Origin: a virus
Lineage: Duplodnaviria; Heunggongvirae; Uroviricota; Caudoviricetes
IMG/VR virus record: IMGVR_UViG_3300045988_034843
Strand: one strand, 5' to 3'
DNA length: 25,609 nt
Below, one piece after another: positions 4,359 through 24,670 of this stretch. Positions within the stretch are counted from its first letter, which is position 1, and every line of letters starts with the position of its first letter. The notes under the pieces are model-generated. The model was given only the letters and a program-made list of their open reading frames with translations. It had not been told where the DNA came from and made no database searches. Position numbers and translations under genes: made by a program.

Positions 4359-4360
4359 CT

Positions 4361-4372
4361 GTGACATGTCAC
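4361..4372. repeat. 12-bp perfect palindrome GTGACATGTCAC (copy 1 of 3)
   Basis: Exact palindrome abutting the hairpin at 4343-4358; overlaps the stop codon of the lipoprotein gene. Confidence 0.6.
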
Positions 4373-4749
4373 GCAACGCAATTATTACCGCGCCATGTAA
4401 CATTTTTAATAATCTTATCAGCACCAAACTCAACGTAAACAGAGCAACTGAAATGGAGTGTATAACCGCCATCAGTTGTTGCGTATGTGTTTGAATATAT
4501 AGTATTACCAATTAGATTAGACGTAGTATTATACGTTGTGGTTTGTGGTACGTTATAACTACCAGAGCTTGAGTAAACATACACTCTGTTTCCATCTGGA
4601 GATGTAAGCTCTCCCTGAGGATACCCCCACTGCTGAACCATTGCGTCTATACTCTGCCCGCGCCACGTAAGCATATTTCTTTCAAACTGTGCAGCTGACT
4701 GGCATCCAACGAGAAGCATAAATCCAAAAATCAAAAATACTTTTCTCAT
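4369..4749 (-). CDS. Putative lipoprotein (126 aa)
   Basis: Internal ATG of track ORF 4369-4785 with AGGGG RBS; MRKVFLIFGFMLLVGCQSA has a lipobox (LVGC); mature part Thr/Ser/Tyr/Asn-rich. Confidence 0.7.
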   Translation of the reverse strand: MRKVFLIFGFMLLVGCQSAAQFERNMLTWRGQSIDAMVQQWGYPQGELTSPDGNRVYVYSSSGSYNVPQTTTYNTTSNLIGNTIYSNTYATTDGGYTLHFSCSVYVEFGADKIIKNVTWRGNNCVA

Positions 4750-4834
4750 AATTACCCCTATCATGGAAAAACAGCACCAATCCACAAATTAACTAGTTAT
4801 TTTATTATTCTTCCGAACAATACAATTCCGAATA

Positions 4835-4960
4835 CTACAAAGCCGAACCATGCCGCTGCACGCAACAGAGATTCCAATTGAAACCCATTTTTATCAAAAT
4901 GTATGAATAGCATAAAAACGCTGCACATATTAGTACAATAAAAGTTATTTGAACCATCAT
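4835..4960 (-). CDS. Small hydrophobic peptide (41 aa), uncertain
   Basis: Own translation: AAGGAG RBS 4 nt before ATGATG at 4960, MMVQITFIVLICAAFLCYSYILIKMGF...; the track lists a different frame (4797-4985) for the same stretch, which lacks an RBS at its internal ATGs; only one of these, or neither, is real. Confidence 0.3.
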   Translation of the reverse strand: MMVQITFIVLICAAFLCYSYILIKMGFNWNLCCVQRHGSAL

Positions 4961-4968
4961 ATCTCCTT

Positions 4969-7443
4969 TTATTGCGGAGTGACATCCTGTGGTCGCCACC
5001 AGTATGTCTGGTTAAACTCTTTCTTCGAACGTTGCTCCATTTTACGCAAATAGCCTGGTGAAAAATACTCCTGCATCTGGTTAAAGATCATGTGATCGAG
5101 AGCCGCCTTCAAGTACCAGAGATTCGCACCAGGCATCAAACCTTTCCCCAGCTTCACCAGATCACCACCAGTCTGCTCACTCTTCCCTTCCACAGCATTT
5201 AACGGTATGCCCTGAGCAATCTTCACTACGTCATCAACCAGACCAGCTACCGGGCCAAGCATCGACGCCAGCGCGCCGCTTCCGTACCTAGTGTGATCTG
5301 ACAATAAAAAGTCACCGTAAAGGCCAAGACCACCACCTTTCAGTAGAGCACCAAGCCAGAATTTTGCGGCATCTTCTCCTGTCATCTCTCGAGGATTACG
5401 ACCAGACGCAAGGTCGTTAAGTTGCTGCGACAAAGCGCCAAGAATGGTCGTACTGGCAATAAACGTCGCAATATATGCCGCACGCCCACCAGCAGACGGC
5501 ATACCCATAGCGCGTGACCAGTGACGCATAACAACCGAGATAGGGAACGATTTAAACAGGAAAACACTTCTCGTTAATTCACCTTTCCATGTTCCACGCT
5601 GAATACCAGAACCGGTTATCAGTTGCTCACGTGCTCCCGGTGTAATAACAGCCATATCAACTTCTTCAGTTACGGCACCGAGCAGTTTACGCATTGCCTC
5701 AAATTTCACGCGTTCAGGCTCACCAAGATGTTTAACTGCTGAATCAGGGATACGCATAATGCTTTCCGGTGTCAGCATCGTATTATTACCGTTCCCCCAG
5801 TCCTCCTGTTTCGCCAGCTTCCATACGCTCCAGTCTGTGTCAGTAATCCCTTTGCTTTTCAGGATACGAAAATCAGAGTCATCGAGGCTACGAAGGTCTG
5901 GTGTCCGTGACACTACTTCTCCCAGGCTTCCCATCATGGTTACGCCATAGGCGCGCTTGTGCGCATCTGACCATGCTGTAAGCCCACTGGCACGCATTAC
6001 CGCCGTTGCCGCCCAACGAGACACTGACGGCCCCATATTATCCATCGCCCAGCGGTTAACGCTGCCAAGTAGAGATTCCATCGCCAGACCAGCGCGGCGC
6101 GCCCGCGCAAGTTCTGTACGGTTCGTTGGGTCCATAGCTTCAAGCTGGTTGCGGAATAACTGGTTCATTGGAAGGTTGGTAACCTTCGCAGACAGATACA
6201 TGGTTCCAAGATCAGAGAACGATGACAGCAACGCGGATCCGAGTCTGCTGGCAACCAGCCAGTTGCGGATATTGTCAGACCATCGCGCGATGTGCGGATT
6301 CGCTACAGGCTGTGTCTTTCCGGAAATAAAGTTGTACAGATTCTCTGTGTTGTTCGCCAGCCGCTCGACTTTACCGGTTTTACTCGGGTTAGCTGTTGCC
6401 GTTTCTGCCTTCACCTGATCAAGAAGAGAGCGGAAAACATGATCGGGGTTTGGGCCATATGTTTCCACCAGTGCAATATCTTTACTGATACCTTCCAGGT
6501 GACCGACCATGATTTCCCATAGAGAGCGATCGCCATAAAGTTGCTGATATTGCAGATAGGAATCTGCATCTTTGAAATGTATCTGTCGTGATGCATTACC
6601 ACGGTTAGCACGTGCGCCGGAAATTCGCATTCCGGTATCAGTAAGCTTATTCAGCCCACCAGTAGCGATCGTGTTATAAGCCTCTCCAAGAAATGAAGAC
6701 AACTCGGCATCGTTCATCAGTTGTCCATCGGCTCGGATATAATATTTGCGATCCAGCTTACCTATAACATCGCTAACCCACTTATCCTTTGATACTGCCC
6801 CAACCTTTTCCATAGAATGATGTTGAGGGATCCCCCAGTTTTCGAGATAGCCAATGTCCCCACCAGCATCATTAAACCGGCGGCGCAGCAGCTCTGTAAC
6901 TTCTCTCCACGCCTTAGCACCGTTTCTTGCTTTAGCATTGCCAGTATTTTGCCCCCGCATTTCATATACCAGGTCACGTACGCCCGCTTCATCTTCAAAC
7001 AGACCAAAAAAGCGAGGATCAACTGCTTCGAATGCCTCCTGCAATTGACTCAATGCATAATCACGGGTGGCTTTTGTTCTGGATTCAACAGAGAGGAAAT
7101 TAGATTTACCGTCTGCATTAAAAGCTATAGTACGGTTAAGAGCGCCAAGTTTCCCATCAGCCCCTTGATAGCTATTGATAAATTTATCCAATCTCTGACG
7201 CGCGGCTATAGTGAGAGCCACACGACGTTTCTTTAATGCCGCTTCTCGCTGTAATTCTTCAGATGCCAATTGTGCTGCTCGATATAGCCGCTCTGATTCG
7301 GAAAGTTGTCGCCACGACATAGGGTCATCACGAGCAATGGAGCGCATATTTCGATAAATGCGGTCTTCAATGTTCTGTATTTCTCGCGCCGTTAACATGC
7401 GCTGCGCCGCCTGCTGAACCGCTTGTATACATTCCTGTCTCAT
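4969..7443 (-). CDS. Large internal virion / DNA-ejection protein (824 aa), gp16-like by position
   Basis: Track ORF; last gene of the structural operon before the accessory island; size and position consistent with a podovirus ejection protein. Confidence 0.6.
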   Translation of the reverse strand: MRQECIQAVQQAAQRMLTAREIQNIEDRIYRNMRSIARDDPMSWRQLSESERLYRAAQLASEELQREAALKKRRVALTIAARQRLDKFINSYQGADGKLGALNRTIAFNADGKSNFLSVESRTKATRDYALSQLQEAFEAVDPRFFGLFEDEAGVRDLVYEMRGQNTGNAKARNGAKAWREVTELLRRRFNDAGGDIGYLENWGIPQHHSMEKVGAVSKDKWVSDVIGKLDRKYYIRADGQLMNDAELSSFLGEAYNTIATGGLNKLTDTGMRISGARANRGNASRQIHFKDADSYLQYQQLYGDRSLWEIMVGHLEGISKDIALVETYGPNPDHVFRSLLDQVKAETATANPSKTGKVERLANNTENLYNFISGKTQPVANPHIARWSDNIRNWLVASRLGSALLSSFSDLGTMYLSAKVTNLPMNQLFRNQLEAMDPTNRTELARARRAGLAMESLLGSVNRWAMDNMGPSVSRWAATAVMRASGLTAWSDAHKRAYGVTMMGSLGEVVSRTPDLRSLDDSDFRILKSKGITDTDWSVWKLAKQEDWGNGNNTMLTPESIMRIPDSAVKHLGEPERVKFEAMRKLLGAVTEEVDMAVITPGAREQLITGSGIQRGTWKGELTRSVFLFKSFPISVVMRHWSRAMGMPSAGGRAAYIATFIASTTILGALSQQLNDLASGRNPREMTGEDAAKFWLGALLKGGGLGLYGDFLLSDHTRYGSGALASMLGPVAGLVDDVVKIAQGIPLNAVEGKSEQTGGDLVKLGKGLMPGANLWYLKAALDHMIFNQMQEYFSPGYLRKMEQRSKKEFNQTYWWRPQDVTPQ

Positions 7444-7448
7444 TTAAT

Positions 7449-9251
7449 TTAACCTCTCAAGAAACACGCCACAGCGACATCAAACAGGCTGGAATCCTGT
7501 ATTGCCTGCTCACTTTCCCTGTTCGCTTCATCCAGTGCTTCACGCGCACTGCGCGATTGTGGATTACCATCATCATCCAGCACGGTGATTATCATGTCCG
7601 GAGATTCAAGCAGCGAGTCTTCAGCTATACGCAGATCAATATCTCCTGCCGGATCTGCCATCATTTTTTGTTCTGTCTGTTGCAATATCTTACCGGGCTC
7701 AAAAGGAGCTACTTCGTCTGGCGTCCTGACCTCTGCTGTTTTATAGAATGAAACAGCCTGAGTATTAAGTTCACTTTCAGCCTGCTGTCTCCGTGCCAGT
7801 TCTGCTCGAGCTTCAAAAAACTGACCGCCAGGCTCATGCGGTGCCAACGCGTTACGAGAAAATTCCAGGCGTTCTTGTGCCTGCCGGATTCGTTGGTCAA
7901 TATCGCGAAGTCTGGCCTGTTTATCTGATCGAGCACGAGATAAAGCCTTACCGCTACCGGCTGGATCTTCTGCAAGAATTTGTGCGCGCTGTTCAGTGAG
8001 ATTTTCAATAATTCGTTGGCTATTAGCGATTTCAGACTGGTAAACCTGTCTATCGCCACGCGGCAAAAGCTGCGCGGCCTGTTCTTCAAGCAACCGATTT
8101 TCTATAGCGCGCGCCGTTACTCCATCATCTACAGATGACAGAGCCTCATTAACTGCCTGAGACAGCAGACTCTTGCGTCCAGGAATTTCACTGAAAGATG
8201 CAGACTCAACAATGCTGGCAACGTCTACAGGTCTCCCCTGGCTAACATCAGACATGGCTTTTCGCAGAGCCTGAATGTGCGAATTACGCGAAAGCACGTT
8301 GATCGGCACGCCGGGAGCAATATCAATTTCAGCATGATGAGCGGCATTCGCCGCCAGTGCAGCATCGATATCAACTGGTGAAAAATTTGGTGCGCTTGTA
8401 GACTCGCCGCGAGAGTTAATAAATCTGCCGACACCACCAAACGCCACCCCAAGAACAGCATCAATAGCAATTGCCTGTCGATCCAACACATCATACTGGT
8501 TAGCCATTTCGCTATAGCCACCATCACGAAGCGTTTTTGCAGTAAGCCCACGCTGTGCCATACCGAACGCAATATTTGTACCTGCGGCATAGGCAATATC
8601 TGGCGTTGCACGTACTGCTGTTGCTGCGGCGCGTCGCACTGAACTTTCACCCGTCCGCGCAAGCTGAGCCGCCACACCTTCCGCCAGCGCACCACCAGCA
8701 CGTAACCCGAGGCTCATAGGGATCAGTGTTCCGGCACCAGCAGTAATACCCTGCACTAATCCCGCTTCCTGCGCCGTCCTGAAATCAACACCCTGTGCTG
8801 TCAGCCGTTCAAACTCAGAAAAACCCTGTAGAGAAGTTACCGCCGCAGCACCTCCGACCGGACCACCGAGCGTTGTACCGACAACAGCCTGCCCGCCCAT
8901 ATCGAACAACCCATAAAGAACCTGCCCGGCGGTTCCGGTTGTCGCGGCATCAGGCGTCAGCCGCTTAACCTGCTGTTCTGCTAGTTTTCTCTGCTCGGCA
9001 ATGTATGAAACTGAAGTATCATTGAGCGAGGTGTTTTCGTTAATAAACTGAGCAATCGGGGATACGATTTTATCCATCCCTGCCCATAGCAACTGATCTG
9101 GCTTTGCCACCAGCCCGGAGTACAAACCAGACAATGCCGCTCCTACAGCATTGTCGAAAAAACCAACATCGCTGTTAAAGCCCGCTGGATTTGATGCTGC
9201 TTCGTCAAGCTGCTGATTCTGGTTTACTGGATTAAGGCCAAAGTAACTCAT
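7449..9251 (-). CDS. Internal virion / ejection protein (600 aa)
   Basis: Track ORF; Ala/Gly-rich, start overlaps the upstream stop (translational coupling). Confidence 0.6.
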   Translation of the reverse strand: MSYFGLNPVNQNQQLDEAASNPAGFNSDVGFFDNAVGAALSGLYSGLVAKPDQLLWAGMDKIVSPIAQFINENTSLNDTSVSYIAEQRKLAEQQVKRLTPDAATTGTAGQVLYGLFDMGGQAVVGTTLGGPVGGAAAVTSLQGFSEFERLTAQGVDFRTAQEAGLVQGITAGAGTLIPMSLGLRAGGALAEGVAAQLARTGESSVRRAAATAVRATPDIAYAAGTNIAFGMAQRGLTAKTLRDGGYSEMANQYDVLDRQAIAIDAVLGVAFGGVGRFINSRGESTSAPNFSPVDIDAALAANAAHHAEIDIAPGVPINVLSRNSHIQALRKAMSDVSQGRPVDVASIVESASFSEIPGRKSLLSQAVNEALSSVDDGVTARAIENRLLEEQAAQLLPRGDRQVYQSEIANSQRIIENLTEQRAQILAEDPAGSGKALSRARSDKQARLRDIDQRIRQAQERLEFSRNALAPHEPGGQFFEARAELARRQQAESELNTQAVSFYKTAEVRTPDEVAPFEPGKILQQTEQKMMADPAGDIDLRIAEDSLLESPDMIITVLDDDGNPQSRSAREALDEANRESEQAIQDSSLFDVAVACFLRG

Positions 9252-11761
9252 TGCGGAATATCTCCGGAGAATCTCTGACGCTTCTGTGTCAGATCAAGAA
9301 CAACGGGAGAACCATCATCTTTTAGCAGATAACCAGTACCAAGTTTCACCAGGTACTGACTATCGCCGTAACTTTGCAAACCATACTGACCAGGCGGTGT
9401 TTTTATCCCTGTGCCAACAACTTGTTCATTCCAAGCCTGATTAACCTGCTTATCGAATTGCTCTGCAGACATTCCCCACGGCAAAAGAACATTCCCCATT
9501 CCGTTATAGTCATGCACGCCACCTGTAGCTACGTTAACAGCCTGTTTCCAGATATCATTGTCAATTTCGCCTGATACCACGCCTTTTTTCGCCATCACAC
9601 CAGCGTAATAGTCCTTTGCGATCTCGTATGCCATTGATGCCCCCTGAGCATCACCAGCAAATGCATCCTTAACCATGTCAGAAAACTCAAGGCGGAGATC
9701 AGCATCTTTAGGCATCGGAATACCTTTCGCGTCATCAGTACCTTTACGAGCCGCCGCGCCAGCAAGAATTGTCTGCGCAGCGGTTTCAGGAGACACGGAA
9801 ACATCCGGATTAAACCAGTTTTTTTCTGCCAAAATACCACCTGGCTTATCCATCAGTATCCCGGCAACGGCAGCAGATGGAGCGTTGGCACTGATCTGCT
9901 GTAGTGCTGACATATACACCTGCCCACCACCAGTGCTCTGCCTGATGGTATCGAGATATGCTGCCTGTTGGGAAACGGGCGCATCACGAAAGAAAACACC
10001 GATCTGATTGGCCTCGTCTTTGGAAAAGAACGTCAGTGGAGTGCCATATGACTTAGCAAGGTCACTGACCTGAGCAGCACGCAAGGCAACGCTCTGTCCA
10101 AAGTTATCCTTATTGCTCATGTCGATAGGCTTTGTCTGTCCTGCGGCAAGAGAGAACTGTACAGGATCAGCCTGTCGCTGCTTTATCACCTGACTTGCAG
10201 CCGACACAACGTTGTCATAAAGAGCGGCTCGTGCCGCATAACCCTCCCCTGTCTCACCAGTATCCGGGCGTAATTGCTCAACATATGCTGTAATGCTGCT
10301 TGTCGGCATGTTGCGGAAAGAGCCTATATACTGTCCGGCGATTTGCGTATTTCTGAACTCGGTATATCGCAGGTTTCCTTCTCTTACTCCATAAGCTGCA
10401 ATAAAATCAGCCTCACCAGGTGGGTTAGGAAATTCAACGCCACGCATATACGCAGCTGTCGCATCGCGAACCTGGCTGTCAATCATCGTTTTATATTCAG
10501 CCTGCTGCTGCCGACGCAGTTGATCCGCCTGTCGCATAAAACTTGCCTGCGCCTCAGGAGATGCCGCATCGAATGCTGCATTACCGGTATAGCGTTTGGT
10601 GTTGGTTGGAATTGTTGATAAACCAAGTGCTGCACTGACACCAGCAGTTAACTGCTGATCACTGTATGGCTGGCTACCGTTCTCATGATGGATAATGGCT
10701 GCACAAAGCGCCTTCAGGGTATCAGGATTAGATGCATCGAGAGGCTCATCAGCAGAAACGCCAAGTTGTTCGCACACTGCTTTGATATACGACATAGTGT
10801 CATTTTTATCAGCAGGCGGTGCCCAGCGATTAATTATCTCGCTGACGGTATCAATACCCTGCCTCTGATACGACATCAGGTTCCGCCCTAATGCACGAAT
10901 CCCGTGTTCAGGTGTTTCGAATTTAGCAAATCGACCATCATCACCGGTCTGGCCTACCCACGGATTAGTTTTGCTGTATTCGAGATTTCCTGGGTTATTG
11001 TTGCGTATGCCACGGGCACGCTCGGAAGAGTCACTATCTGCTACAGCACGGCGAGCTCCAGCAGCAGTATCACTTAACTCGCCATTACTTTGGATGAATG
11101 CGGTCGCATTGTTTGCCGACCACTGGGACAATGCAGCATCAGCAACCTTCTCTTTAAACTCGATTTTCTTGGCCTGGATTTGCTCGTTGCTCCAGCCATG
11201 TGCAACACCGTACTCCTCAATTTGCTGGAAAGTTTGTTTGTTAGCCAATACGTATGCGGCGTTGTCGCCATACAATGCTGCGGCATTTTTACCATTGTTC
11301 AGCAGTGTCGCCTGAAACTGGCCTTCTTCGTAGGCATTAATTTGCCCTATCTCGTGTCGCCCGGCCTGCGTAGTGAACTGAATGCGCTGCTGCTGCGCCT
11401 GCTGCATGAAAGCATTACGAGCCTGTTCATCCGGCAGCGACATAGCCAGTTGTTCGACCTGAGCATCAAACTGCTGCGTATACTCATGGCCTTTTCCAAT
11501 AGCATTTTTCCCTTTCAGGTTAAGCAATCCTGTTTCAGGATTATTCAGCAGATCGCTGCTTATCTGACTGAGGTTAAGAGATGCCTCCTGAGCCAGAGCA
11601 ATATTGGCACGCTGTTTTGCCTGCCCCAAAACATCAATTGCCTCTGTCCCTGCCCGAACAAAAGCATCACCAATACCTTGCTGAGAAAACGTCTGCAAGC
11701 CTGCTGACTGAACTCCACGACTCTCAACCTGACGTCCGGATACTGTTGGTACGACTGGCAT
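9248..11761 (-). CDS. Internal virion protein with possible cell-wall-hydrolase motif (837 aa from ATG 11761)
   Basis: Track ORF 9248-11836 trimmed to the ATG at 11761, which has a GGAGG RBS and overlaps the upstream stop as TAATG; contains GIRNNNPGNLEYSKTNPWVG...FETPEHGIRALGRNLMSY, which I recall as typical of phage virion-associated muralytic domains (unverified). Confidence 0.6.
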   Translation of the reverse strand: MPVVPTVSGRQVESRGVQSAGLQTFSQQGIGDAFVRAGTEAIDVLGQAKQRANIALAQEASLNLSQISSDLLNNPETGLLNLKGKNAIGKGHEYTQQFDAQVEQLAMSLPDEQARNAFMQQAQQQRIQFTTQAGRHEIGQINAYEEGQFQATLLNNGKNAAALYGDNAAYVLANKQTFQQIEEYGVAHGWSNEQIQAKKIEFKEKVADAALSQWSANNATAFIQSNGELSDTAAGARRAVADSDSSERARGIRNNNPGNLEYSKTNPWVGQTGDDGRFAKFETPEHGIRALGRNLMSYQRQGIDTVSEIINRWAPPADKNDTMSYIKAVCEQLGVSADEPLDASNPDTLKALCAAIIHHENGSQPYSDQQLTAGVSAALGLSTIPTNTKRYTGNAAFDAASPEAQASFMRQADQLRRQQQAEYKTMIDSQVRDATAAYMRGVEFPNPPGEADFIAAYGVREGNLRYTEFRNTQIAGQYIGSFRNMPTSSITAYVEQLRPDTGETGEGYAARAALYDNVVSAASQVIKQRQADPVQFSLAAGQTKPIDMSNKDNFGQSVALRAAQVSDLAKSYGTPLTFFSKDEANQIGVFFRDAPVSQQAAYLDTIRQSTGGGQVYMSALQQISANAPSAAVAGILMDKPGGILAEKNWFNPDVSVSPETAAQTILAGAAARKGTDDAKGIPMPKDADLRLEFSDMVKDAFAGDAQGASMAYEIAKDYYAGVMAKKGVVSGEIDNDIWKQAVNVATGGVHDYNGMGNVLLPWGMSAEQFDKQVNQAWNEQVVGTGIKTPPGQYGLQSYGDSQYLVKLGTGYLLKDDGSPVVLDLTQKRQRFSGDIPQ

Positions 11762-16169: not shown

Positions 16170-16187
16170 ATACACTCCTGCAATAAA

Positions 16188-16201: not shown

Positions 16202-16219
16202 TTGTCTGATCCGCGAGGC

Positions 16220-16555: not shown

Positions 16556-16565
16556 CAATATCACC

Positions 16566-17003
16566 TTAACCAGTTACTTTTGAGCGGATCGGATACGGCG
16601 TATTGGCATCAACATCAAGATTGATACCCGCAGTGAATTTGCCAGCCGTTAGTGGGCCAGTTGCGACGGAGTAGTTAACACGCAGATATCGCTGAACACC
16701 GGCTGGCACCTTTGCAGAAACAACTCGCTTACCTGCTGTCAGGGTGGCCTTTGCCAGTGCGCCACTATCATAAATAGTGGACCATGAGCTGTTATTATCA
16801 CTCGTCTGCAACTGGATGTTTACAGTTGCCTCACCACTTGCCGTGGCGGCTTCGTTAACCAGCACCCAAAACTCAAGCGGATAACCCACGCCGATATCGC
16901 GACGGTTTCCATCAATTGGACCGAGATCGATTACGTCAGTAGAAGCCGCGGTATTCGTAACCGCCTGAGCTTCGGAGAACATCAACAGTTTGTCGGTGAT
17001 CAT
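16566..17003 (-). CDS. Putative head decoration / capsid accessory protein (145 aa)
   Basis: Track ORF; GGAGA RBS; immediately downstream of the major capsid gene; Thr/Ala/Gly-rich. Confidence 0.45.
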   Translation of the reverse strand: MITDKLLMFSEAQAVTNTAASTDVIDLGPIDGNRRDIGVGYPLEFWVLVNEAATASGEATVNIQLQTSDNNSSWSTIYDSGALAKATLTAGKRVVSAKVPAGVQRYLRVNYSVATGPLTAGKFTAGINLDVDANTPYPIRSKVTG

Positions 17004-17054
17004 CTTCTTTCTCCATTAGTGGGCCTGTTGCGGCCCACAGGTTAATAACAGGCG

Positions 17055-18047: not shown

Positions 18048-18055
18048 TTCCTCTC

Positions 18056-18751
18056 TTATTTTCCATAGAGCACTTCGGCCGCACTACGCTGGCCTTCATT
18101 ACCACCGGTGACCATGCCATCTTCAGACATCGCCTTTCCGATTTTCACGAACGTTTTGACCAGATCAGGGTGATTACCCAGCCCGGTGGTGTTCAGATAT
18201 TCTTTGAGTTCAGGTGTCCCGAACTGGTCAAGCGCACGCTGTGCGGCGCTAAGGTTAGAAATCAACTTGTCGCCACCGATTTCTTTGTCAGCTTTTACAT
18301 CCGCAGCCCACTGCTCGGTTGTTTTCTGCCAGGCTTCTGCCTGGCGCTGCTGAACACCTGCCAGAATCTTCGGATAAGCATCAACCAGCTTTTGCGCTTG
18401 CTCGTTGGTCAGGTTTAGTTCTCGCGCCACCGGCTCGAACTCCTTCAACGCTTCTGTATCCAGCTCTACGCCTTCGGCAGCCTGAAACTCGTACTTTTCA
18501 GGCGCACCCTCTGGTTTATCGCCGTCCTTTTTTTCATCCTGCTTATCGTTTTCAGGCTTTTTGTCATCAGCAGGTTTATCGCCATCAGCAACAGGTTGTG
18601 GCTTATCACCTTCCTGTTGTGATGGATCACCAACTGGAGCAGGGTTATCACCTGCAGGCGCTGACGGTTCTGACGCAGCCGGAGCTGCTCCACCATCGAC
18701 TGGTTGCTCATTGCAAAGACGGCGATACAGCAAACGCTCAAATAAATTCAT
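18056..18751 (-). CDS. Scaffolding-like protein (231 aa)
   Basis: ATG at 18751 (track ORF 18056-18757); strongly acidic, Pro/Ala/Asp/Lys-rich low-complexity N-terminal half; position between portal and capsid. Confidence 0.55.
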   Translation of the reverse strand: MNLFERLLYRRLCNEQPVDGGAAPAASEPSAPAGDNPAPVGDPSQQEGDKPQPVADGDKPADDKKPENDKQDEKKDGDKPEGAPEKYEFQAAEGVELDTEALKEFEPVARELNLTNEQAQKLVDAYPKILAGVQQRQAEAWQKTTEQWAADVKADKEIGGDKLISNLSAAQRALDQFGTPELKEYLNTTGLGNHPDLVKTFVKIGKAMSEDGMVTGGNEGQRSAAEVLYGK

Positions 18752-18753
18752 GA

Positions 18754-19050
18754 TCACTCCTGTTCACTGGCCTCTTTGGCCATCTTCAAATACTGTTCAG
18801 GGCAATGCGCCATAACGCGCTGAAACAGTTCCAGCGCCAGATTGCGTTGCCCCTCATTAAATGCCATTGCCATAGCGTCCATCGGTGAGATAGCGGAAAA
18901 CACACGGCCTTTCTCCAGCACCGACCAGACAACGCGACGCCCCTGTTCACTGCTCATGACAAAGCAAATGTCATCAATTTCACGCTGTGCCATGTCACGT
19001 TGCTTACGGGCGTTTTCTTCTTTCAGTTGATCGTCTTCGTAATCTGTCAT
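18754..19050 (-). CDS. Hypothetical protein (98 aa)
   Basis: Track ORF; ATGA overlap with the portal stop; charged, no motif recognised. Confidence 0.5.
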   Translation of the reverse strand: MTDYEDDQLKEENARKQRDMAQREIDDICFVMSSEQGRRVVWSVLEKGRVFSAISPMDAMAMAFNEGQRNLALELFQRVMAHCPEQYLKMAKEASEQE

Positions 19051-20726
19051 TGTGATTGCCCACCCTGACCACTAACTGCATTCGCCATAGCTGACAAAAC
19101 ACTCGGATCCGAAGTTTTAGCTTCGCTTAGCGTCTTGGCACCCTGTGCCGCCGCCATCCCCATCGCCATCATTTGTTGCTGCTGTTGTTGCTGTGCCCGT
19201 TGCTGGCGAGCCTGCTCAACCTGTTCCTGCGGAACAATGACGGTTGGAGACACTCCGGACATATCAGCGAATGCATCGATCGCCTGATCAACGTTGAGTT
19301 TGTCGAGAGCTTCTGGTTTCGCTTGCGCAAGTTGACCAATGAAGTTGACCGTAGACACCAGACTGGACAGGCCGATAGACTTCTGCGCCTGAGCCATGAC
19401 GGAAATGTATTCGACCTTCAGGGGCATACCTTCCATCGCGTCAGGCGGTGGCGGCAGCATGTTTTTACGCACCATCATCGAGAAAGCGCGGTCAATGAGA
19501 GGATTAAGACATTCGTCGTTCAGACGCTCCAGAACCGGCCCCAACATCAGAAGTTTTTCTTCTTTCATTTCGATCACCGCTTCAACAGGCATCGAGCGGG
19601 TATTGATGTTCTGCAACATCATGAACAGATCGACAAAGTAGGCGCTGTTAATGATTTGACGGGTGTCCTGAATGTCTGCCACCAAATCTGCTGTACTGGG
19701 GTTAACCAGATAAGCAGGCCTGAAACCATCCTGACCAGTAATCTGATCGATATACGTGATGTCGCCAGGAAGAAGGGAGGCACGCTGATTCTTGAGGGAA
19801 GTCGGAGCAACCATCGGCGGATTGGTGGCTTTATCAATCAACTGCGACTTGCGCTTCTGGAGAAGCTGCAATGCCTTAACAGGTCCAAGCGCCAGCATAC
19901 CCGGGCATGATGATCCATAAACATCTTCGCCGTTAACTTCCCAGCGCGGAGCCATAATTGGAAACTCATCGAATCCGGACTCACGCAACAACTTGTCGTT
20001 ATCGCCACCAACCTCGTAATAAACCGATTTGAATGGCTTGTTCTTGCTATCCAGCTTCGATGTATCGCGGTCAATGTTCGGGTAAACCGAATGCATCACT
20101 TCAATCCACTTCTCGTAGGTTCCGCTTTCCCACATGCTTTTTACGGATTCGCTGACGTTATTTAGCCCGAACTCCTGAACAAGCTGACGAACAGTCATAG
20201 AGAACTTGCGAAAACAGGTGTCCACACTGCCACGAGGTGAGTTAGCCAGGTAGTAACTGCCTATCGGGAATGGCATTGTGCGAATGATGTCCTCGTCATC
20301 CTCCAGCACTGCCATTGCACCAGTGCTGTATGTGCCGAGGCTTCCGTATAACTGCGGCAGCGACTGATAGAGATTCGACTTATTGAACATATCGTTCATG
20401 CGGTTCTGCACCGCCTCAAGCCACAACTTAACAGGGCCATAATCCATCATTTCAGGATCTGGCGTAGCCAGGCGAAACCACGGACGCGCGGGGCTTGTGA
20501 TGCCTGACATCATGCCGCTGGCGAGAGTGCGCGCCGCCATAGTCCCGGTCGAATCAATAATGCGTGTATTGCGTCGATCGTTACGGTTAACCTCAGAAGT
20601 CAGAAAGCGGGAACCACGCGGGTTGATGTAATCACTCAACTCGCGCCAGTGCGGCTCGAACGACTGACGCTCGCTTTCAAGTTGTGCGAACTGTTTGTTC
20701 AATCGCTCTTTAGTTGTTTCCGCCAT
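19047..20726 (-). CDS. Portal protein (559 aa)
   Basis: Track ORF; position between terminase and scaffold/capsid, size appropriate; Gln-rich C-terminal tail; GGAGTCATTGAAATG initiation region. Confidence 0.6.
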   Translation of the reverse strand: MAETTKERLNKQFAQLESERQSFEPHWRELSDYINPRGSRFLTSEVNRNDRRNTRIIDSTGTMAARTLASGMMSGITSPARPWFRLATPDPEMMDYGPVKLWLEAVQNRMNDMFNKSNLYQSLPQLYGSLGTYSTGAMAVLEDDEDIIRTMPFPIGSYYLANSPRGSVDTCFRKFSMTVRQLVQEFGLNNVSESVKSMWESGTYEKWIEVMHSVYPNIDRDTSKLDSKNKPFKSVYYEVGGDNDKLLRESGFDEFPIMAPRWEVNGEDVYGSSCPGMLALGPVKALQLLQKRKSQLIDKATNPPMVAPTSLKNQRASLLPGDITYIDQITGQDGFRPAYLVNPSTADLVADIQDTRQIINSAYFVDLFMMLQNINTRSMPVEAVIEMKEEKLLMLGPVLERLNDECLNPLIDRAFSMMVRKNMLPPPPDAMEGMPLKVEYISVMAQAQKSIGLSSLVSTVNFIGQLAQAKPEALDKLNVDQAIDAFADMSGVSPTVIVPQEQVEQARQQRAQQQQQQQMMAMGMAAAQGAKTLSEAKTSDPSVLSAMANAVSGQGGQSQ

Positions 20727-20740
20727 TTCAATGACTCCGG

Positions 20741-20947
20741 TTACTGACCAAGCAGCGTTTTACCGCTGGTATTAGCAGTTGATGTGTCGCCCTGAGAACC
20801 GGTAAGCAGCGTAGAACTACGACCAGCAGCAGCGCGACGGCGACGAGTTTCTTCGTCGCGGGCATCAACAACGGCGGCATCCTGCTCCTGTGGTGCTGCC
20901 TGAACTTCTGGTGTTGCAGGCACTGATGGTGAGCTACCCATGCACAT
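20741..20947 (-). CDS. Small hypothetical protein (68 aa) upstream of portal
   Basis: Track ORF; initiation region GGAGTCATTGATATG nearly identical to that of the portal gene; the overlapping alternative frame 20728-20967 was not preferred. Confidence 0.4.
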   Translation of the reverse strand: MCMGSSPSVPATPEVQAAPQEQDAAVVDARDEETRRRRAAAGRSSTLLTGSQGDTSTANTSGKTLLGQ

Positions 20948-21036
20948 ATCAATGACTCCGTACGCAATTAAATTATTACCAATTTAACCACATATGATTT
21001 ATTTATCGTAGACAGTTGACATTTAACGCGCGAATT

Positions 21037-21051
21037 ATTACCTTTCAGGTA
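21037..21051. promoter_or_regulatory. Dyad operator-like site TTACC-TTTCA-GGTAA (copy 5)
   Basis: Same half-sites and spacing; preceded by TTGACA (21016-21021) 17 bp before TACCTT; lies between the 20947 minus-strand start and the plus-strand tRNA. Confidence 0.6.
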
Positions 21052-21374
21052 ACCAAAGAGTTCATTCCGGTTACTAACCTGACTGGCTTGTCGTTAAATT
21101 GAACAGGTGGAGTGAGCTTTTATTTTGAGCAGTACGGCGTATGGCACATGCGCCGATAGCGGTCTGGATGCGTTTAAGGGGCACCCTCCCTGGCTGTGGC
21201 AAACGAACCAGGTAGCCGGAATGTGCAAGTCGAGCGGTTTTATTCCGCGCACGGGGATTCACCATCCCGGCGATTCGGTGTGACGCCTCGGAAGAGACGA
21301 GGGTACAACGATGAGAGCATTTATGGAGCCGCGACAAAGTGTGGCGCCTTAACAGGCTAAGTGCTCTCAGCGTT

Positions 21375-21451
21375 GTGGCATTAGCTCAGTTGGACAGAGC
21401 AACCGCCTTCTAAGCGGTTGGTCGCAGGTTCGAATCCTGCATGCCACGCCA
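21375..21451 (+). tRNA. tRNA-Arg (anticodon UCU), 77 nt with encoded CCA
   Basis: Hand-folded cloverleaf: acceptor GTGGCAT/ATGCCAC, D-arm GCTC-AGTTGGACA-GAGC, anticodon stem ACCGC/GCGGT with loop CTTCTAA, T-arm GCAGG-TTCGAAT-CCTGC, discriminator G, CCA; close to but not identical with E. coli argU as I recall it. Confidence 0.85.
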
Positions 21452-21494
21452 GAATCACGCCTAAGGACCGTGATGCCAGAAGTTCCAGGGGCTT

Positions 21495-21536
21495 GGCGGT
21501 GATGGTTTCCCTTGAAGGACTATCACCGCCCTTTTT
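21495..21536 (+). terminator. Rho-independent terminator after the tRNA
   Basis: GGCGGTGAT...ATCACCGCC 9-bp stem followed by CTTTTT. Confidence 0.65.
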
Positions 21537-21614
21537 ACAGCAGGGCGCCATTGCGATGGCTTCATGCTGTAAACCAGTACAGCCACGGAAGGCATAACTC
21601 ATTGCTTCCAGTTC

Positions 21615-21638
21615 GCCCGGTTCGCCGGGCATTTTTTT
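21615..21638 (+). terminator. Rho-independent terminator-like hairpin abutting the RBS of the 140-aa gene
   Basis: GCCCGG-TTCG-CCGGGC followed by ATTTTTTT, then AAGGTGA RBS and ATG at 21650. Confidence 0.6.
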
Positions 21639-21649
21639 AAGGTGAGATC

Positions 21650-22072
21650 ATGAAAACAGCCGACATGCTAGCTAAATATCTAAATGAATGGCCGTGCAAA
21701 TATGTACGCATTGTTCAGGGTGATGATTCAATTTTTTATGGTGTTTTTGCAGGAAATGAAATGCTTTGTGAAGCAATTCCAGGTGAGCGACTTGCCGGGT
21801 TAACGCTTAGCGATGACCATGGAATAGGAGTTACTTGCCATGACTGGATTTCAGCGCAGAAAACTGAAATGGAAAAAGGCAATGTGTTTGATATTTCTCG
21901 CGCTGTATACGCCAAAGAAAAAAGTGATGATGATTACATGCGCGAAAACTTATACAACATGAAGTTACAATGCCTGGCTGAAGTGCTTAGTAAAAGATCT
22001 TTACTTGATGTGGTTGGTGCTGAGCAGGACGCCAAGGCAATCAACGCCGCATTCGATAAAATAACCTTCTAA
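21650..22072 (+). CDS. Hypothetical protein (140 aa), opposite-strand insert (moron) between terminase and portal
   Basis: Track ORF; AAGGTGA RBS; AT-rich relative to flanking structural genes; bracketed by terminators; no motif recognised. Confidence 0.65.
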   Translation: MKTADMLAKYLNEWPCKYVRIVQGDDSIFYGVFAGNEMLCEAIPGERLAGLTLSDDHGIGVTCHDWISAQKTEMEKGNVFDISRAVYAKEKSDDDYMRENLYNMKLQCLAEVLSKRSLLDVVGAEQDAKAINAAFDKITF

Positions 22073-22076
22073 CGCC

Positions 22077-22088
22077 GTGACATGTCAC
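22077..22088. repeat. 12-bp perfect palindrome GTGACATGTCAC (copy 2)
   Basis: Identical 16-mer context (CGTGACATGTCACAAT) to copy 3; sits between the stop at 22072 and the terminator at 22093. Confidence 0.6.
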
Positions 22089-22092
22089 AATC

Positions 22093-22117
22093 AGCCCGCC
22101 GATTCGCGGGCTTTTTT
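22093..22117 (+). terminator. Rho-independent terminator AGCCCGC-CGATTC-GCGGGCT + T6
   Basis: 7-bp stem and T-run; the T-run overlaps the last codons of the minus-strand terminase gene. Confidence 0.7.
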
Positions 22118-23591
22118 ATGCAAAAGGATCATAGTCTGTGATGGCTTTGCCTTGCTGGTTCTGCTGCCCGGGAATTCGCAGACGCTTCGACACAGGGAAC
22201 GCAAACGTCAGCAGTAGCGCATCGCCTTTACCAGGAGAACGCCCAAGTCGCTCTTTGATATCTTCCTTCGGTTCGATAACGATTTTACCGTCCACGCGAA
22301 CTTTGTACTCTGCCGTCGACAGGTCGTCCGCTGTTTCCTGGTCATCCAGCATGCCGCCGAGCCTCAGCCATGTCTTGCATGAGTTGAACATCTCCCCACG
22401 CTTGTTGAGCATCTGCGGGTCAGTAGACGCGCCACCGAACGGAACAAGTTGCCATGTACGACCCCAGCCGTCACCGATTGACTTCAAACCGGTTCCGTAA
22501 CCGAAGTCGATGAACACCGCGTCAGCCTGATACTGGTCTTCAAAGTCAGCGATACGCTTCGCCATAATCAGATCGTCGGTAGTCTTGTTGCCAGTCCACA
22601 GCACCTTACTGTGTAGCCCCTGCCGCAGGTATATCACCGCGTCATCAACGCCTGAATATGCCGGGTCAACACCGATTATCACCGGAGCATGTGCAACCTG
22701 CGCAGCGGTTACCACCCGTTTCATTGCCTCGTCAGTAAGACCGGTAGGGATAAACTGCAATTCAGATGCATCAGGGAATATGCCACGCACACGGATTTTA
22801 ACGAAGTCGCTATCTTCCCCGTAGTCATCAACCCATTTCTGCAACTGCTGTTTGTTGGTGCCTTCCACCGTCCTGCTGTCAATCTGCGCAGTTTTCCAGC
22901 GGTGTTTGTATTTGCGGAAACATTCACGGAAACGCCCGGTGTTACGTGTAGGGTTTCCGAAAGCCACCCAGATAATCTCAGTGTCTTCGTCCGTTAGCGC
23001 ACCCTCGGCAACTTCCCACACCAGATCCGCAATGTTCGACGCTTCATCAAATACCACGATGATGCGTTTACGCTCGTTGTGTAGTCCGGCGAATGCCTCA
23101 GTGTTGTGCTCAGACCAGGGGATTGCGTCAGCTCGCCACCGCTTGTCGTGCCCAGGGTCATTGCTGTACATCGCGGTAGCGGTACAGGTAAACCAGTCTT
23201 TCGTGATAGCAAGGTTTGACCACTTGATAATTTCCGGCCAGGTCTTCGTTCGTAGCTGGTTGTCGGTGTTGGCGGTCACCACGACCTTACAATCCTCGCA
23301 AGTGGACATGCCCCAGTTGATCAGCATTGAGATGAATGCGGATTTACCAATACCGTGACCAGAAGCACGTGCCAGCATAAGCGGCTGATATCGCGTCTCT
23401 GGATTCTGCAGGTGATCACGTATCTCTCGGAACGCATCAGCCTGCCACTGACGTGGGCCGGTGGCATGTGCCAGTTCAGTCCCCTCTTCCCCCCATGGGA
23501 ACGCATAGAGGGCATAGCCAAGCGGATCGTGAGTGAACCCTGCAATATCCTCGATTAACTGCTCTTCAGGAGATAACGCTGTATCTGTCAC
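22116..23591 (-). CDS. Terminase large subunit (491 aa)
   Basis: Track ORF; Walker A-like GHGIGKS, Walker B-like IIVVFDEAS, C-terminal acidic nuclease-like region (GVDPAYSGVDD); ATGA overlap with the upstream small subunit. Confidence 0.8.
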   Translation of the reverse strand: MTDTALSPEEQLIEDIAGFTHDPLGYALYAFPWGEEGTELAHATGPRQWQADAFREIRDHLQNPETRYQPLMLARASGHGIGKSAFISMLINWGMSTCEDCKVVVTANTDNQLRTKTWPEIIKWSNLAITKDWFTCTATAMYSNDPGHDKRWRADAIPWSEHNTEAFAGLHNERKRIIVVFDEASNIADLVWEVAEGALTDEDTEIIWVAFGNPTRNTGRFRECFRKYKHRWKTAQIDSRTVEGTNKQQLQKWVDDYGEDSDFVKIRVRGIFPDASELQFIPTGLTDEAMKRVVTAAQVAHAPVIIGVDPAYSGVDDAVIYLRQGLHSKVLWTGNKTTDDLIMAKRIADFEDQYQADAVFIDFGYGTGLKSIGDGWGRTWQLVPFGGASTDPQMLNKRGEMFNSCKTWLRLGGMLDDQETADDLSTAEYKVRVDGKIVIEPKEDIKERLGRSPGKGDALLLTFAFPVSKRLRIPGQQNQQGKAITDYDPFA

Positions 23592-24187
23592 TGATTGCCA
23601 TCCTGACGTTCTTTCAGTCTCTTCCTGGCTGCCGCTATGCGATCAGCAATTGTCACATTCACATTAACATCCAGGCGTTCTTTGAATGCGTTGACGTCGA
23701 CGTGCTTACCAATCAGTTCGAGGTTCTTCACCTTGTCAGGCCATTTAATTTTTTTGAGGATGCCAACCAGCTCTTTCTCGTCTCCACGGCCTTCGAACAT
23801 GTCGGCCAGTTCGAAACCTGTCAGGTACTGCCGCCAGACCTTAGGCCATTCCGAGACCGGCTTGATGCTCATATCGTCGTTGAGAATGTCAATCACGTCC
23901 ATCTGGTCGATCTCCACCAGGCGCATGAGAACGTAATCAGCACTGACGCGCATTCGTTTGTTGCGCTCCTCCATCAACTCGGCAATCCGTTTCTGAATGC
24001 GTTCATCGCGCATCATGACACTGGCTTTAACTGCCGCTGTATTTGGGGAGAATCCTGCATTAATCGCAGCCTGAGTCTGGTTTTCAGGCGTTTTGATGTA
24101 TGACTGGCAATAAGCCTCCTGCATTGCTGTTAGTGGCTTAAATTGCGTTGATTTGCGTTTATAGGTTTTAGGTTCAGCAGGCATCAT
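23588..24187 (-). CDS. Terminase small subunit (199 aa from ATGATG at 24187)
   Basis: Track ORF 23588-24265 begins at a TTG; the in-frame ATGATG at 24187 is preferred; helix-turn-helix-like TAMQEAYCQSYIKTPENQTQAAINAGFSP; directly upstream of and overlapping the large subunit. Confidence 0.55.
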   Translation of the reverse strand: MMPAEPKTYKRKSTQFKPLTAMQEAYCQSYIKTPENQTQAAINAGFSPNTAAVKASVMMRDERIQKRIAELMEERNKRMRVSADYVLMRLVEIDQMDVIDILNDDMSIKPVSEWPKVWRQYLTGFELADMFEGRGDEKELVGILKKIKWPDKVKNLELIGKHVDVNAFKERLDVNVNVTIADRIAAARKRLKERQDGNQ

Positions 24188-24204
24188 AACCACCGTGGTA
24201 ATAG

Positions 24205-24219
24205 TTACCGTTGTGGTAA
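24205..24219. promoter_or_regulatory. Dyad operator-like site TTACC-GTTGT-GGTAA (copy 6), embedded in GGTAA-TAG-TTACC-GTTGT-GGTAA-TAG-TACC
   Basis: Centre 25 bp upstream of the terminase small-subunit ATG; extra half-sites on both sides form a tandem GTGGTAATAG(T)TACC direct repeat. Confidence 0.55.
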
Positions 24220-24230
24220 TAGTACCATGC

Positions 24231-24256
24231 AAAATAAAGCCGCCATAGTTGGCGGC
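24231..24256 (-). terminator. Rho-independent terminator (minus-strand reading GCCGCCA-ACTA-TGGCGGC + TTTATTTT)
   Basis: 7-bp GC stem followed by a T-rich run on the minus strand, upstream of the terminase genes. Confidence 0.65.
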
Positions 24257-24297
24257 AGTATTCAAAACCCATCAAATTCATCATGCATAACCCACTC

Positions 24298-24309
24298 GTG
24301 ACATGTCAC
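24298..24309. repeat. 12-bp perfect palindrome GTGACATGTCAC (copy 3)
   Basis: Overlaps the stop codon of the gene at 24306-24644 and lies about 40 bp from the terminator at 24231-24256. Confidence 0.6.
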
Positions 24310-24644: not shown

Positions 24645-24670
24645 TGATTTAACCTTTATTGCGAACATAT

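What the first reader, a model, noticed from the sequence alone, without database searches (positions are those of the whole stretch)
4361..24309. 12-bp perfect palindrome GTGACATGTCAC repeated three times, each beside a terminator hairpin
Copies at 4361-4372, 22077-22088 and 24298-24309; the latter two share the identical 16-mer CGTGACATGTCACAAT. Each lies within a few to ~40 bp of a GC-rich terminator hairpin and at the edge of an inserted or accessory unit (lipoprotein gene, tRNA/140-aa moron, small Cys-cluster gene). Three exact copies of a 12-mer are not expected by chance. It could be a second regulator's binding site, a boundary element for module exchange, or a processing signal.
Basis: seen in the sequence. 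Interest (0 to 1): 0.65.

Follow-up and report, generated by a model that had tools for sequence, protein, structure and literature searches.

The report
Phage regulator's palindromic binding-site candidate
The repeated 12-base palindrome is real and is most likely the DNA docking site of a small, uncharacterised phage protein whose own gene ends inside one copy; this gene-plus-site unit recurs in many unrelated phages.

Summary
GTGACATGTCAC occurs exactly three times (4361, 22077, 24298), with none in 100 shuffles, and each copy lies 0-41 nt from an intrinsic terminator.

The window is an epsilon15/phiV10-like (Uetakevirus) E. coli prophage. The same palindrome sits at the same three syntenic places in epsilon15, phiV10, SPN1S, Tyrion and Enterobacter phage BUCT554, and at two of them in Klebsiella phage BUCT711, although the flanks diverge.

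The TGA stop codon of the gene at 24306-24644(-) lies inside copy 3. This gene is an epsilon15 gp49 homologue of 112 aa (phrog_536, no Pfam). Its model has a ribbon-helix-helix-like N-terminal half and a Cys4 cluster.

This gene family is the only ORF shared by seven unrelated phage types, and all of them carry the general motif Y-GTGAC-N2-GTCAC-R. In 13 sequences I counted 35 copies against 0.5 expected, and none in lambda, P2 or P22. In 22 of 30 bacterial loci found through the protein alone, the stop codon sits at the same position in a site.

Best reading: the palindrome is the operator of this protein. A role as a transcription-unit boundary or roadblock is only inferred, and binding itself is untested. 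The half-sites equal matS, but the spacing is one base shorter. I found no prior description.

The parts
24298..24309 (.). Palindrome copy 3 (S3). It contains the TGA stop codon of the gp49-family gene and lies 41 nt upstream of the terminator that precedes terS.
   Evidence: same arrangement in epsilon15, SPN1S, Tyrion, BUCT711, BUCT554, N15 and AH07, and in 22 of 30 bacterial loci
24306..24644 (-). gp49-family gene (112 aa plus stop). The predicted protein has an RHH-like N-terminal half and a C-terminal Cys4 cluster. It is the candidate protein that binds the palindrome.
24239..24256 (-). Intrinsic terminator hairpin between the gp49-family gene and terS.
22077..22088 (.). Palindrome copy 2 (S1). 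It lies 4 nt after the stop of the 140-aa accessory gene and 4 nt before the terminator hairpin shared with terL.
22093..22112 (+). Terminator hairpin between the convergent 140-aa gene (+) and terL (-). The T-run is on the + strand.
21650..22072 (+). 140-aa accessory ('moron') gene, phrog_4846, that ends just before copy 2.
   Evidence: different genes occupy this slot in relatives
4361..4372 (.). Palindrome copy 1 (S2). It contains the TGA stop of ORF 4369-4785 (-), the last gene of the structural operon, and abuts the terminator.
4343..4360 (-). Intrinsic terminator of the structural (tail/ejection) operon, directly abutting copy 1.
4369..4785 (-). Terminal ORF of the structural operon (phrog_3716). 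Its stop codon lies in copy 1.

Best explanation
The palindrome is the core of a 14-bp element, Y-GTGAC-N2-GTCAC-R. It is most likely the double-stranded DNA recognition site of the small protein encoded at 24306-24644 (-). This protein belongs to the epsilon15 gp49 / N15 gp46 family. Its model has a ribbon-helix-helix-like N-terminal half and a Cys4 zinc-type module.

The gene and one site form a compact cassette in which the stop codon lies inside the site. This cassette has spread among unrelated temperate phages, and extra sites are scattered in each genome.

What is shown:
- The motif is non-random.
- Its positions are conserved.
- It co-inherits exclusively with this gene family.
- The stop-codon overlap is conserved.
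- The protein model resembles an RHH fold.

What is inferred:
- A dimer of this protein binds the site.

What is more speculative (my probability about 0.3 given binding):
- In this prophage the three sites mark the 3' ends of three transcription units: the early-right operon, the accessory gene facing terL, and the structural operon.
- Bound protein would act there as a boundary or roadblock. It would limit read-through between units, alongside the intrinsic terminators, and might feed back on its own gene's 3' end.
For: (1) Non-randomness. Three exact copies in the window and none in 100 shuffles.

(2) Phylogenetic footprint. The 12-mer is exact at the three syntenic positions in epsilon15, SPN1S, Tyrion and BUCT554, and at two of them in phiV10 and BUCT711, while the flanks differ. 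A degenerate fourth copy lies at the Rz stop in epsilon15 and SPN1S.

(3) Spacing and half-site specificity. GTGAC-N2-GTCAC occurs 35 times in 13 sequences totalling 515 kb, against 0.5 expected. Spacings 0, 1 and 3-7 give 0-1 copies. GTGAC is the top half-site among all N2-spaced 5-mer inverted repeats, 34 against 8 for the next.

(4) Controls. Lambda, P2 and P22 have no copies.

(5) Exclusive co-occurrence. Among epsilon15, ZF40, Chlobot, AH07, N15, YenM_42.18 and Vibrio K308, the gp49 family is the only ORF cluster present in all seven. All seven carry the motif.

(6) Ascertainment through the protein only. In 22 of 30 bacterial loci the gene's TGA forms bases 2-4 of a site, and in 4 more the site starts 5-7 nt after the first base of the stop codon. 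There are 42 sites in 539 kb against 0.5 expected.

(7) Ascertainment through the motif only. 46 of 120 IMG/VR loci hold the gene, and in 42 of these its 3' end lies within 30 nt of a site.

(8) The position just outside the searched pattern is a pyrimidine in 96% of 73 distinct sites.

(9) Symmetric recognition. Half-sites are invariant from Vibrio to E. coli phages, only the centre varies, and asymmetric centres occur in either orientation relative to the gene.

Against: - No binding experiment exists, and the link is correlative.
- RHH operators normally lie at promoters. Here the conserved site is at the gene's 3' end, so classical autorepression does not apply.
- The extra sites have no common context across phages. 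They sit next to terminators in Uetakeviruses, inside coding sequences in ZF40, N15 and AH07, and before start codons in K308, so no single downstream mechanism is evident.
- A roadblock placed upstream of an efficient terminator looks redundant.
- Host-genome frequency of the motif was not measured.
Confidence: 0.62

Rival explanations
1. RNA-level element. The transcribed palindrome forms a small hairpin at stop codons or in 3' UTRs. It would be recognised in mRNA, possibly by the same zinc-module protein, to control stability, processing, termination or translation of the adjacent gene.
For: The site overlaps or follows stop codons and lies 5' of terminators on the terminated transcript in Uetakeviruses. 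In N15 and Chlobot the Shine-Dalgarno sequence of the next gene begins right after the site. Zinc modules can bind RNA (general knowledge).
Against: The hairpin has only a 4-bp stem at -1.2 kcal/mol and folds no better than shuffles. The stem is invariant, with no compensatory substitutions across very divergent phages. Asymmetric centres occur in both orientations relative to transcription. The RHH-like fold points to duplex DNA.
Confidence: 0.1
2. Recombination or module-boundary sequence. The conserved 12-mer plus terminator would act as a short homology 'linker' at which accessory genes are swapped between related prophages.
For: In Uetakeviruses different genes end at S1 and S2 while the site and terminator stay constant. 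The gp49 gene plus its site is found in many genomic contexts with no conserved downstream partner.
Against: Twelve bases are far too short for homologous exchange. No dedicated recombinase tracks with the motif. Sites also lie inside conserved coding sequences such as N15 repA, the ZF40 cII-like gene and the AH07 antiterminator gene. Strict spacing, strict half-sites and the flanking Y/R preference are features of protein recognition.
Confidence: 0.1
3. Host-factor site. The sites would be bound by a host protein, for example MatP, whose matS site GTGACRNYGTCAC has identical half-sites. The phage would exploit host nucleoid organisation.
Against: The spacing is 2, not 3, in 35 of 37 occurrences. 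The motif is absent from lambda, P2 and P22, which share these hosts. It tracks a phage gene across hosts from Vibrio to Escherichia.
Confidence: 0.07
4. Late-promoter and antitermination architecture at S3. GTGACA would serve as a -35 element of a promoter that fires into the nearby terminator, as with lambda PR'-tR'. The upstream zinc-containing gene would act as a Q-like antiterminator.
For: The gene is the last early-right gene and is followed by the site, then a terminator, then terS. There are promoter-like matches: GTGACA-17-TAAATT in epsilon15 read, and GTGACA-18-CATGAT in the window.
Against: The promoter match is at chance level, 4 found against 5.1 expected. S1 and S2 have no -10 partner. 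Family members occur in phages that have their own Q-like gene and sit elsewhere in them: the PL operon in Chlobot and AH07, among right-arm genes in N15. There is no similarity to Q families. Late operons carry main-repressor operators.
Confidence: 0.06

Closest known systems
Ribbon-helix-helix repressors and antitoxins with palindromic operators (CopG/RepB-RCR_reg/YbfE, Arc, Mnt, MazE, TacA, ParD)
   Different: The protein carries an extra C-terminal Cys4 module. The conserved site lies at the gene's stop codon, not at its promoter. There is no toxin or other conserved partner gene. No sequence-level membership in any curated family was found.
MatP / matS (E. coli Ter macrodomain organiser)
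   Same: The half-sites GTGAC and GTCAC are identical. MatP is an RHH-containing protein. Sites are few and dispersed rather than clustered at a promoter.
   Different: matS is 13 bp (GTGACRNYGTCAC) and the phage site is 12 bp, with spacing 2 against 3. There is no detectable sequence homology to MatP. The phage protein has no four-helix bundle or coiled coil in the model. The system is phage-borne.
Mycobacteriophage L5/Bxb1 'stoperators' (repressor gp71 sites dispersed at gene ends that block elongation; from my own knowledge, Brown et al. 1997)
   Same: Several copies of one short site are dispersed through a temperate phage genome, typically in short intergenic gaps at or over stop codons, away from promoters. 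This is the functional model adopted here.
   Different: Stoperators are asymmetric and orientation-dependent, number about 20-30, and are bound by the immunity repressor. Here the site is a palindrome with 3-4 copies, and the main repressor has a different operator. Elongation block is untested.
Lambda Q / qut / tR' late control
   Same: In Uetakeviruses a small zinc-containing protein gene is the last early gene, followed by the site, a terminator and then the late genes.
   Different: There is no homology to Q families. The same gene family sits elsewhere in phages that already have Q. There are three sites rather than one.

Membership tests
RHH (CopG/Arc/MetJ-type) DNA-binding proteins | beta-alpha-alpha fold of about 45 residues | tested here: met
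RHH (CopG/Arc/MetJ-type) DNA-binding proteins | Significant sequence match to a curated RHH family | tested here: inconclusive
   All hits are sub-threshold: PF10723 RepB-RCR_reg E 0.034 on homologue P0158 and NCBIfam PRK11675 E 0.066. Nothing was found against PDB sequences.
RHH (CopG/Arc/MetJ-type) DNA-binding proteins | Dimer binds a symmetric or repeated operator | not testable with these tools
   Only the symmetry of the site and co-occurrence with the gene are available.
RHH (CopG/Arc/MetJ-type) DNA-binding proteins | Operator overlaps the regulator's own promoter (autorepression) | tested here: not met
   The conserved site overlaps the stop codon at the 3' end of the gene in 22 of 30 loci.
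MatP/matS | 13-bp site GTGACRNYGTCAC | tested here: not met
   The spacing is 2 in 35 copies. Spacing 3 occurs once, in K308. The consensus is taken from PMC6907758.
MatP/matS | Protein homologous to MatP (four-helix bundle + RHH + coiled coil) | tested here: not met
Stoperator-type elongation blocks (L5 gp71) | Multiple dispersed sites at gene ends, away from promoters | tested here: met
   The window's three sites lie at or after stop codons. The same holds in six relatives.
Stoperator-type elongation blocks (L5 gp71) | Sites bound by the prophage immunity repressor; asymmetric and orientation-dependent | tested here: not met
   The epsilon15-type repressor operators are TTACC-N5-GGTAA. The element is a palindrome.
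Stoperator-type elongation blocks (L5 gp71) | Bound protein stops RNA polymerase | not testable with these tools
   Needs in vitro transcription or Term-seq.
Lambda-type Q antiterminators | Homology to a Q family and a single qut site at the late promoter | tested here: not met
   No Pfam match. There are three sites. The family is also present in phages with their own Q-like gene.
cos/pac packaging site | Virion DNA ends or packaging series start at the site | tested here: not met
   The phiV10 and Tyrion records break inside S3 only because they were opened at, or 2 nt after, the last gene's stop codon. Tyrion is circularly permuted and terminally redundant (PMC5754475). The family also occurs in cos phages far from terS.
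Intrinsic terminator | The palindrome is part of the GC-rich hairpin plus U-run | tested here: not met
   It folds as a separate, marginal 4-bp hairpin beside the terminator stems.

The most novel reading that the evidence does not exclude
A widespread, undescribed phage regulator-site cassette. It would consist of an RHH-plus-zinc-module protein whose matS-like operator (Y-GTGAC-N2-GTCAC-R) is built into its own stop codon. The protein would use a handful of dispersed copies to insulate or shut off transcription units by blocking elongation, a palindromic 'stoperator' system of Gram-negative phages. Alternatively it could cross-talk with the host MatP/matS system.
Probability: 0.3. Interest if true: 0.75.

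Novelty: new variant of a known kind. Interest (0 to 1): 0.6.

Why it matters
Uetakeviruses such as epsilon15, phiV10 and SPN1S are model and applied phages, used in cryo-EM work, O157 and Salmonella detection, and serotype conversion. Their gene regulation beyond the repressor and antirepressor is largely unknown.

This work gives a testable pairing of an uncharacterised protein family with a defined 14-bp DNA element. My searches found hundreds of homologues of this family in Enterobacterales and Vibrio prophages, all unnamed or labelled hypothetical. The element is present in podo-, myo- and siphoviruses, including N15-type telomere phages and P2-like phages.

The operator-in-stop-codon arrangement is unusual for ribbon-helix-helix regulators. 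If the protein blocks elongation at unit boundaries, it would extend the stoperator idea beyond mycobacteriophages. The identity of the half-sites with matS makes a simple binding experiment informative about possible interference with host chromosome organisation.

In practice, the motif is also a compact marker for this gene cassette in prophage annotation.

Tried and rejected
- Packaging site. The phiV10 and Tyrion GenBank records break inside the S3 palindrome, which looked like a physical end. Both were simply opened at, or 2 nt after, the last gene's stop codon, and Tyrion is circularly permuted. Rejected.
- Main repressor operator. The annotated epsilon15 repressor sites are a different motif. 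Rejected.
- Chance or low complexity. Rejected by shuffles and by the spacing and half-site controls.
- MatP homology and Mnt homology by hhalign. Nothing found.
- First AF2 model from a shallow alignment (pLDDT 67), with Foldseek against PDB. Uninformative. A deeper alignment was needed.
- PDB profile search, Pfam on all family members, PADLOC and BFVD. No informative hits.
- Literature searches for the 12-mer, for generalised forms, for N15 gp46 and for TTHA0139. No relevant description in phages. The ZX5 paper deals with repressor, antirepressor and integrase only.
- Conserved downstream partner gene, to test a toxin-antitoxin or operon idea. None found.
- The afdb50 fold library was unavailable.
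- A host-wide count of the 12-mer could not be done with the tools, because a collection scan needs 14 specified bases and BLAST cannot find 12-mers.


Full report
**Observation**

GTGACATGTCAC occurs exactly three times in the window, at 4361-4372, 22077-22088 and 24298-24309. None of 100 dinucleotide-preserving shuffles contained even one copy. The last two copies share CGTGACATGTCACAAT.

Each copy is beside a terminator-like hairpin:
- 4343-4360 on the minus strand abuts copy 1.
- 22093-22112 on the plus strand is 4 nt from copy 2.
- 24239-24256 on the minus strand is 41 nt from copy 3.

A one-mismatch copy at 18987 lies in a coding sequence and is not conserved in epsilon15.

**What the window is**

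The right-hand 4.6 kb of the window matches phiV10, TL-2011b, PAS61 and ZX5 at about 95-96% identity, and epsilon15 and SPN1S more distantly. It also matches many E. coli prophages.

So the window is an epsilon15-like (Uetakevirus) prophage with its structural genes on the minus strand. A 99.6% identical copy of that stretch lies in a prophage next to guaA in E. coli SY033. That prophage has the same three sites and no others in its early region or in 8.9 kb of host flank.

**Conservation**

The 12-mer is exact at the three syntenic places in epsilon15 (2142, 19517, 39612), SPN1S, Tyrion and Enterobacter phage BUCT554. BUCT554's third copy has centre CT. It is exact at two of the three places in phiV10 and in Klebsiella phage BUCT711. 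In phiV10 the third copy has one mismatch and spans the record ends. BUCT711 lacks the terL-side copy. The flanking intergenic DNA differs between these genomes.

The three places are:
- S3, after the last early-right gene (epsilon15 gp49) and before terS.
- S1, between terL and a convergent accessory gene.
- S2, at the end of the long structural operon.

A degenerate fourth copy overlaps the Rz stop codon in epsilon15 and SPN1S.

The epsilon15 and phiV10 records annotate promoters, terminators, IHF sites and repressor sites, but nothing at these positions. The annotated repressor operators are a different motif, ATTACC-N4/5-GGTAAT. The window has six of these, matched as TTACC-N5-GGTAA.

**The link to a gene**

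In the window the TGA stop of ORF 24306-24644(-) forms bases 2-4 of copy 3, read on the gene's strand. This ORF is the epsilon15 gp49 homologue. It matches phrog_536 at E 3e-54 and has no Pfam family. Its homologues are uniformly 112 aa and named 'hypothetical protein'.

A tblastn search found homologues outside Uetakevirus:
- Pectobacterium myovirus ZF40 gp22 (68% identity)
- the lambda-like phage Chlobot
- Pantoea myovirus AH07
- P2-like Yersinia phages (about 40%)
- N15 gp46 and phiKO2 (about 35%)
- Vibrio K-series phages (31%)

Every one of these that I fetched carries the motif:
- ZF40 has three exact copies, one of them 3 nt after gp22's stop.
- Chlobot has one, right after the gene.
- In N15 the gp46 stop lies in GTGACTGGTCAC, and the same 12-mer recurs twice: between gene 33 and a terminator, and inside repA.
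- In AH07 the stop lies in GTGACCTGTCAC, and there is one exact copy elsewhere.
- K308 has three GTGAC-N2-GTCAC copies.
- YenM_42.18 has one exact copy.

**Statistics**

In these 13 sequences (515 kb) GTGAC-N2-GTCAC occurs 35 times against 0.5 expected. Spacings 0, 1 and 3-7 occur 0-1 times. Among all 5-mer half-sites in N2 inverted repeats, GTGAC scores 34 against 8 for the runner-up. Lambda, P2 and P22 have none.

An all-against-all ORF comparison of the seven unrelated phage types shows that the gp49 family is the only cluster shared by all seven. The next cluster, the CI-like repressors, is in five.

I also ascertained loci through the protein alone, using one conserved peptide pattern in GTDB genomes. 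This gave 30 loci in Citrobacter, Pantoea, Klebsiella, Enterobacter, Erwinia, Xenorhabdus, Yersinia and other genera. In 22 of them the TGA stop is at exactly the same register in a site. In 4 more the site starts 5-7 nt after the first base of the stop codon. There are 42 sites in 539 kb against 0.5 expected.

Ascertaining through the motif alone gives the converse. A scan of IMG/VR with one 14-mer was stopped at 120 loci. Of these, 58 are Uetakevirus-like by blastn. 46 hold the gene in the DNA available, and in 42 its 3' end is within 30 nt of a site.

The base just outside the searched pattern is a pyrimidine in 96% of 73 distinct sites. The element is therefore Y-GTGAC-(A)(T)-GTCAC-R. The centre varies by clade: AT, GC, AG/CT, AC, CA/TG. 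Asymmetric centres occur in either orientation relative to the gene. This fits recognition of duplex DNA by a symmetric dimer.

**The protein**

Family alignments show these features:
- a basic N-terminal arm
- an extended segment
- two helices with an RRPGR.PY turn between them
- three invariant cysteines (C79, C82, C99) and a fourth that is nearly invariant (C91)

A first AF2 model from a shallow alignment was poor (pLDDT 67), and Foldseek gave nothing significant. After adding N15-type and Vibrio-type homologues the model reached pLDDT 83.9 and pTM 0.62.

The weak sequence signals agree with this:
- PF10723 RepB-RCR_reg, E 0.034
- NCBIfam 'LexA regulated protein', E 0.066

There is no significant match to PDB sequences, Pfam, PADLOC or BFVD. 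I therefore treat 'RHH-like DNA-binding domain plus Cys4 module' as moderately supported. DNA binding itself is inferred.

**Mechanism**

Three things are shown. There is a conserved, symmetric 14-bp element. It is inherited with one gene family across unrelated phage backbones. One copy is built into that gene's stop codon. The inference is that the protein binds the element.

What binding achieves is not determined. The family has no conserved downstream partner. The next feature after the gene-linked site differs between phages:
- terS, behind a terminator, in Uetakeviruses
- an excisionase-like gene in AH07-type prophages
- a Shine-Dalgarno sequence and start codon in N15 and Chlobot
- a TTGACT-17-TATACT promoter with a perfect LexA box in BUCT711 and BUCT554

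In this prophage all three sites lie at the 3' ends of transcription units that abut differently regulated units. S3 separates the early operon from the late operon. S1 separates an accessory gene from terL. S2 separates the structural operon from a lipoprotein-like gene.

The closest functional precedent I know is the mycobacteriophage 'stoperator', a dispersed repressor site at gene ends that blocks elongation (from my own knowledge). I therefore commit to a boundary or roadblock role, at about 0.3 probability given binding. That role may include feedback on the regulator's own 3' end.

The late operons carry main-repressor operators. A Q-like antitermination role is therefore not needed, and it is not supported.

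**Rivals**

An RNA element is disfavoured. The hairpin is only -1.2 kcal/mol with z -0.03, there is no compensatory change in the stem, and orientation is not fixed.

A recombination boundary fits the variable genes next to S1 and S2. It does not fit sites inside conserved genes, nor the strict spacing and flank preferences.

A host-factor site is suggested by the identity of the half-sites with matS, GTGACRNYGTCAC (PMC6907758). However, the spacing is one base shorter, the motif is missing from lambda, P2 and P22, and it follows the phage gene across hosts.

A packaging site is excluded. The two GenBank records that break inside S3 were opened at, or 2 nt after, the last gene's stop codon, and Tyrion is circularly permuted.

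**Novelty and limits**

I found no paper holding the 12-mer in a phage context. I found none on this protein family. Database names are 'hypothetical protein' or a generic 'transcriptional regulator'.

It is best filed as a new variant of a known kind: a ribbon-helix-helix-type regulator with a dyad operator, but with an unusual operator placement and an added zinc module.

The main gaps are these:
- There are no binding data.
- Fold confidence is modest.
- There is no genome-wide host count of the motif.
- There is no evidence on when the gene is expressed.

Noticed in passing
window 1004-1018, 2124-2138, 2217-2231, 3245-3259, 21038-21052, 24205-24219: Six copies of TTACC-N5-GGTAA, the motif annotated as the prophage repressor operator in epsilon15. 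They lie upstream of terS, upstream of the gp3-like gene, and in the antirepressor/accessory region. This suggests the late operons are directly controlled by the repressor.
   Followed up: partly
L124 (BUCT711) about 380-430, reverse strand; the equivalent region of L125 (BUCT554): Right after the S3 site these phages have a TTGACT-17-TATACT promoter overlapped by a perfect LexA box (TACTGT-N8-ACAGTA). It drives a gene of about 110 aa inserted between the gp49-like gene and terS.
   Followed up: no
window 18987-18998: One-mismatch copy GTGCCATGTCAC inside the Bbp19-like gene. It is conserved in phiV10 (5306) but absent at that place in epsilon15, so it is probably coding coincidence.
   Followed up: partly
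L132 (Vibrio phage K308) 19491-19503: A 13-bp GTGACACCGTCAC that fits the host matS consensus, in a phage that also has three 12-bp sites and a ParA-like gene.
   Followed up: no
L133 (lambda) and L128:34832 (Chlobot): Lambda has two GTGAC-N1-GTCAC sequences and Chlobot has one (GTGACGGTCAC). The spacing differs from the motif studied, and the meaning is unknown.
   Followed up: no
IMG/VR loci L021, L040, L050, L069, L107: Unrelated viral contigs in which the 12-mer sits within arrays of GTGAC(G/A)C or GTCAC repeats. These look like iterons and may belong to a different GTGAC-reading protein.
   Followed up: no
window 24645-24922: A gap of about 280 nt between the DUF551 gene and the gp49-family gene. 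In epsilon15 the upstream gene overlaps gp49. The gap could hold a promoter or a small ORF.
   Followed up: no
window 21375-21451: tRNA-Arg (anticodon TCT) on the plus strand, upstream of the 140-aa accessory gene and opposite in direction to the late genes.
   Followed up: partly
L001 (phiV10) 39101-39104 + 1-8: The S3 copy of phiV10 is degenerate (GTGACATGTTAC) and is split by the record ends. The other two copies are exact.
   Followed up: yes
L129 (N15) 33237-33248: One of the three N15 sites lies inside the replication gene repA. It is conserved at the same distance in a Pseudocitrobacter N15-like element (L163) but not in L164.
   Followed up: partly
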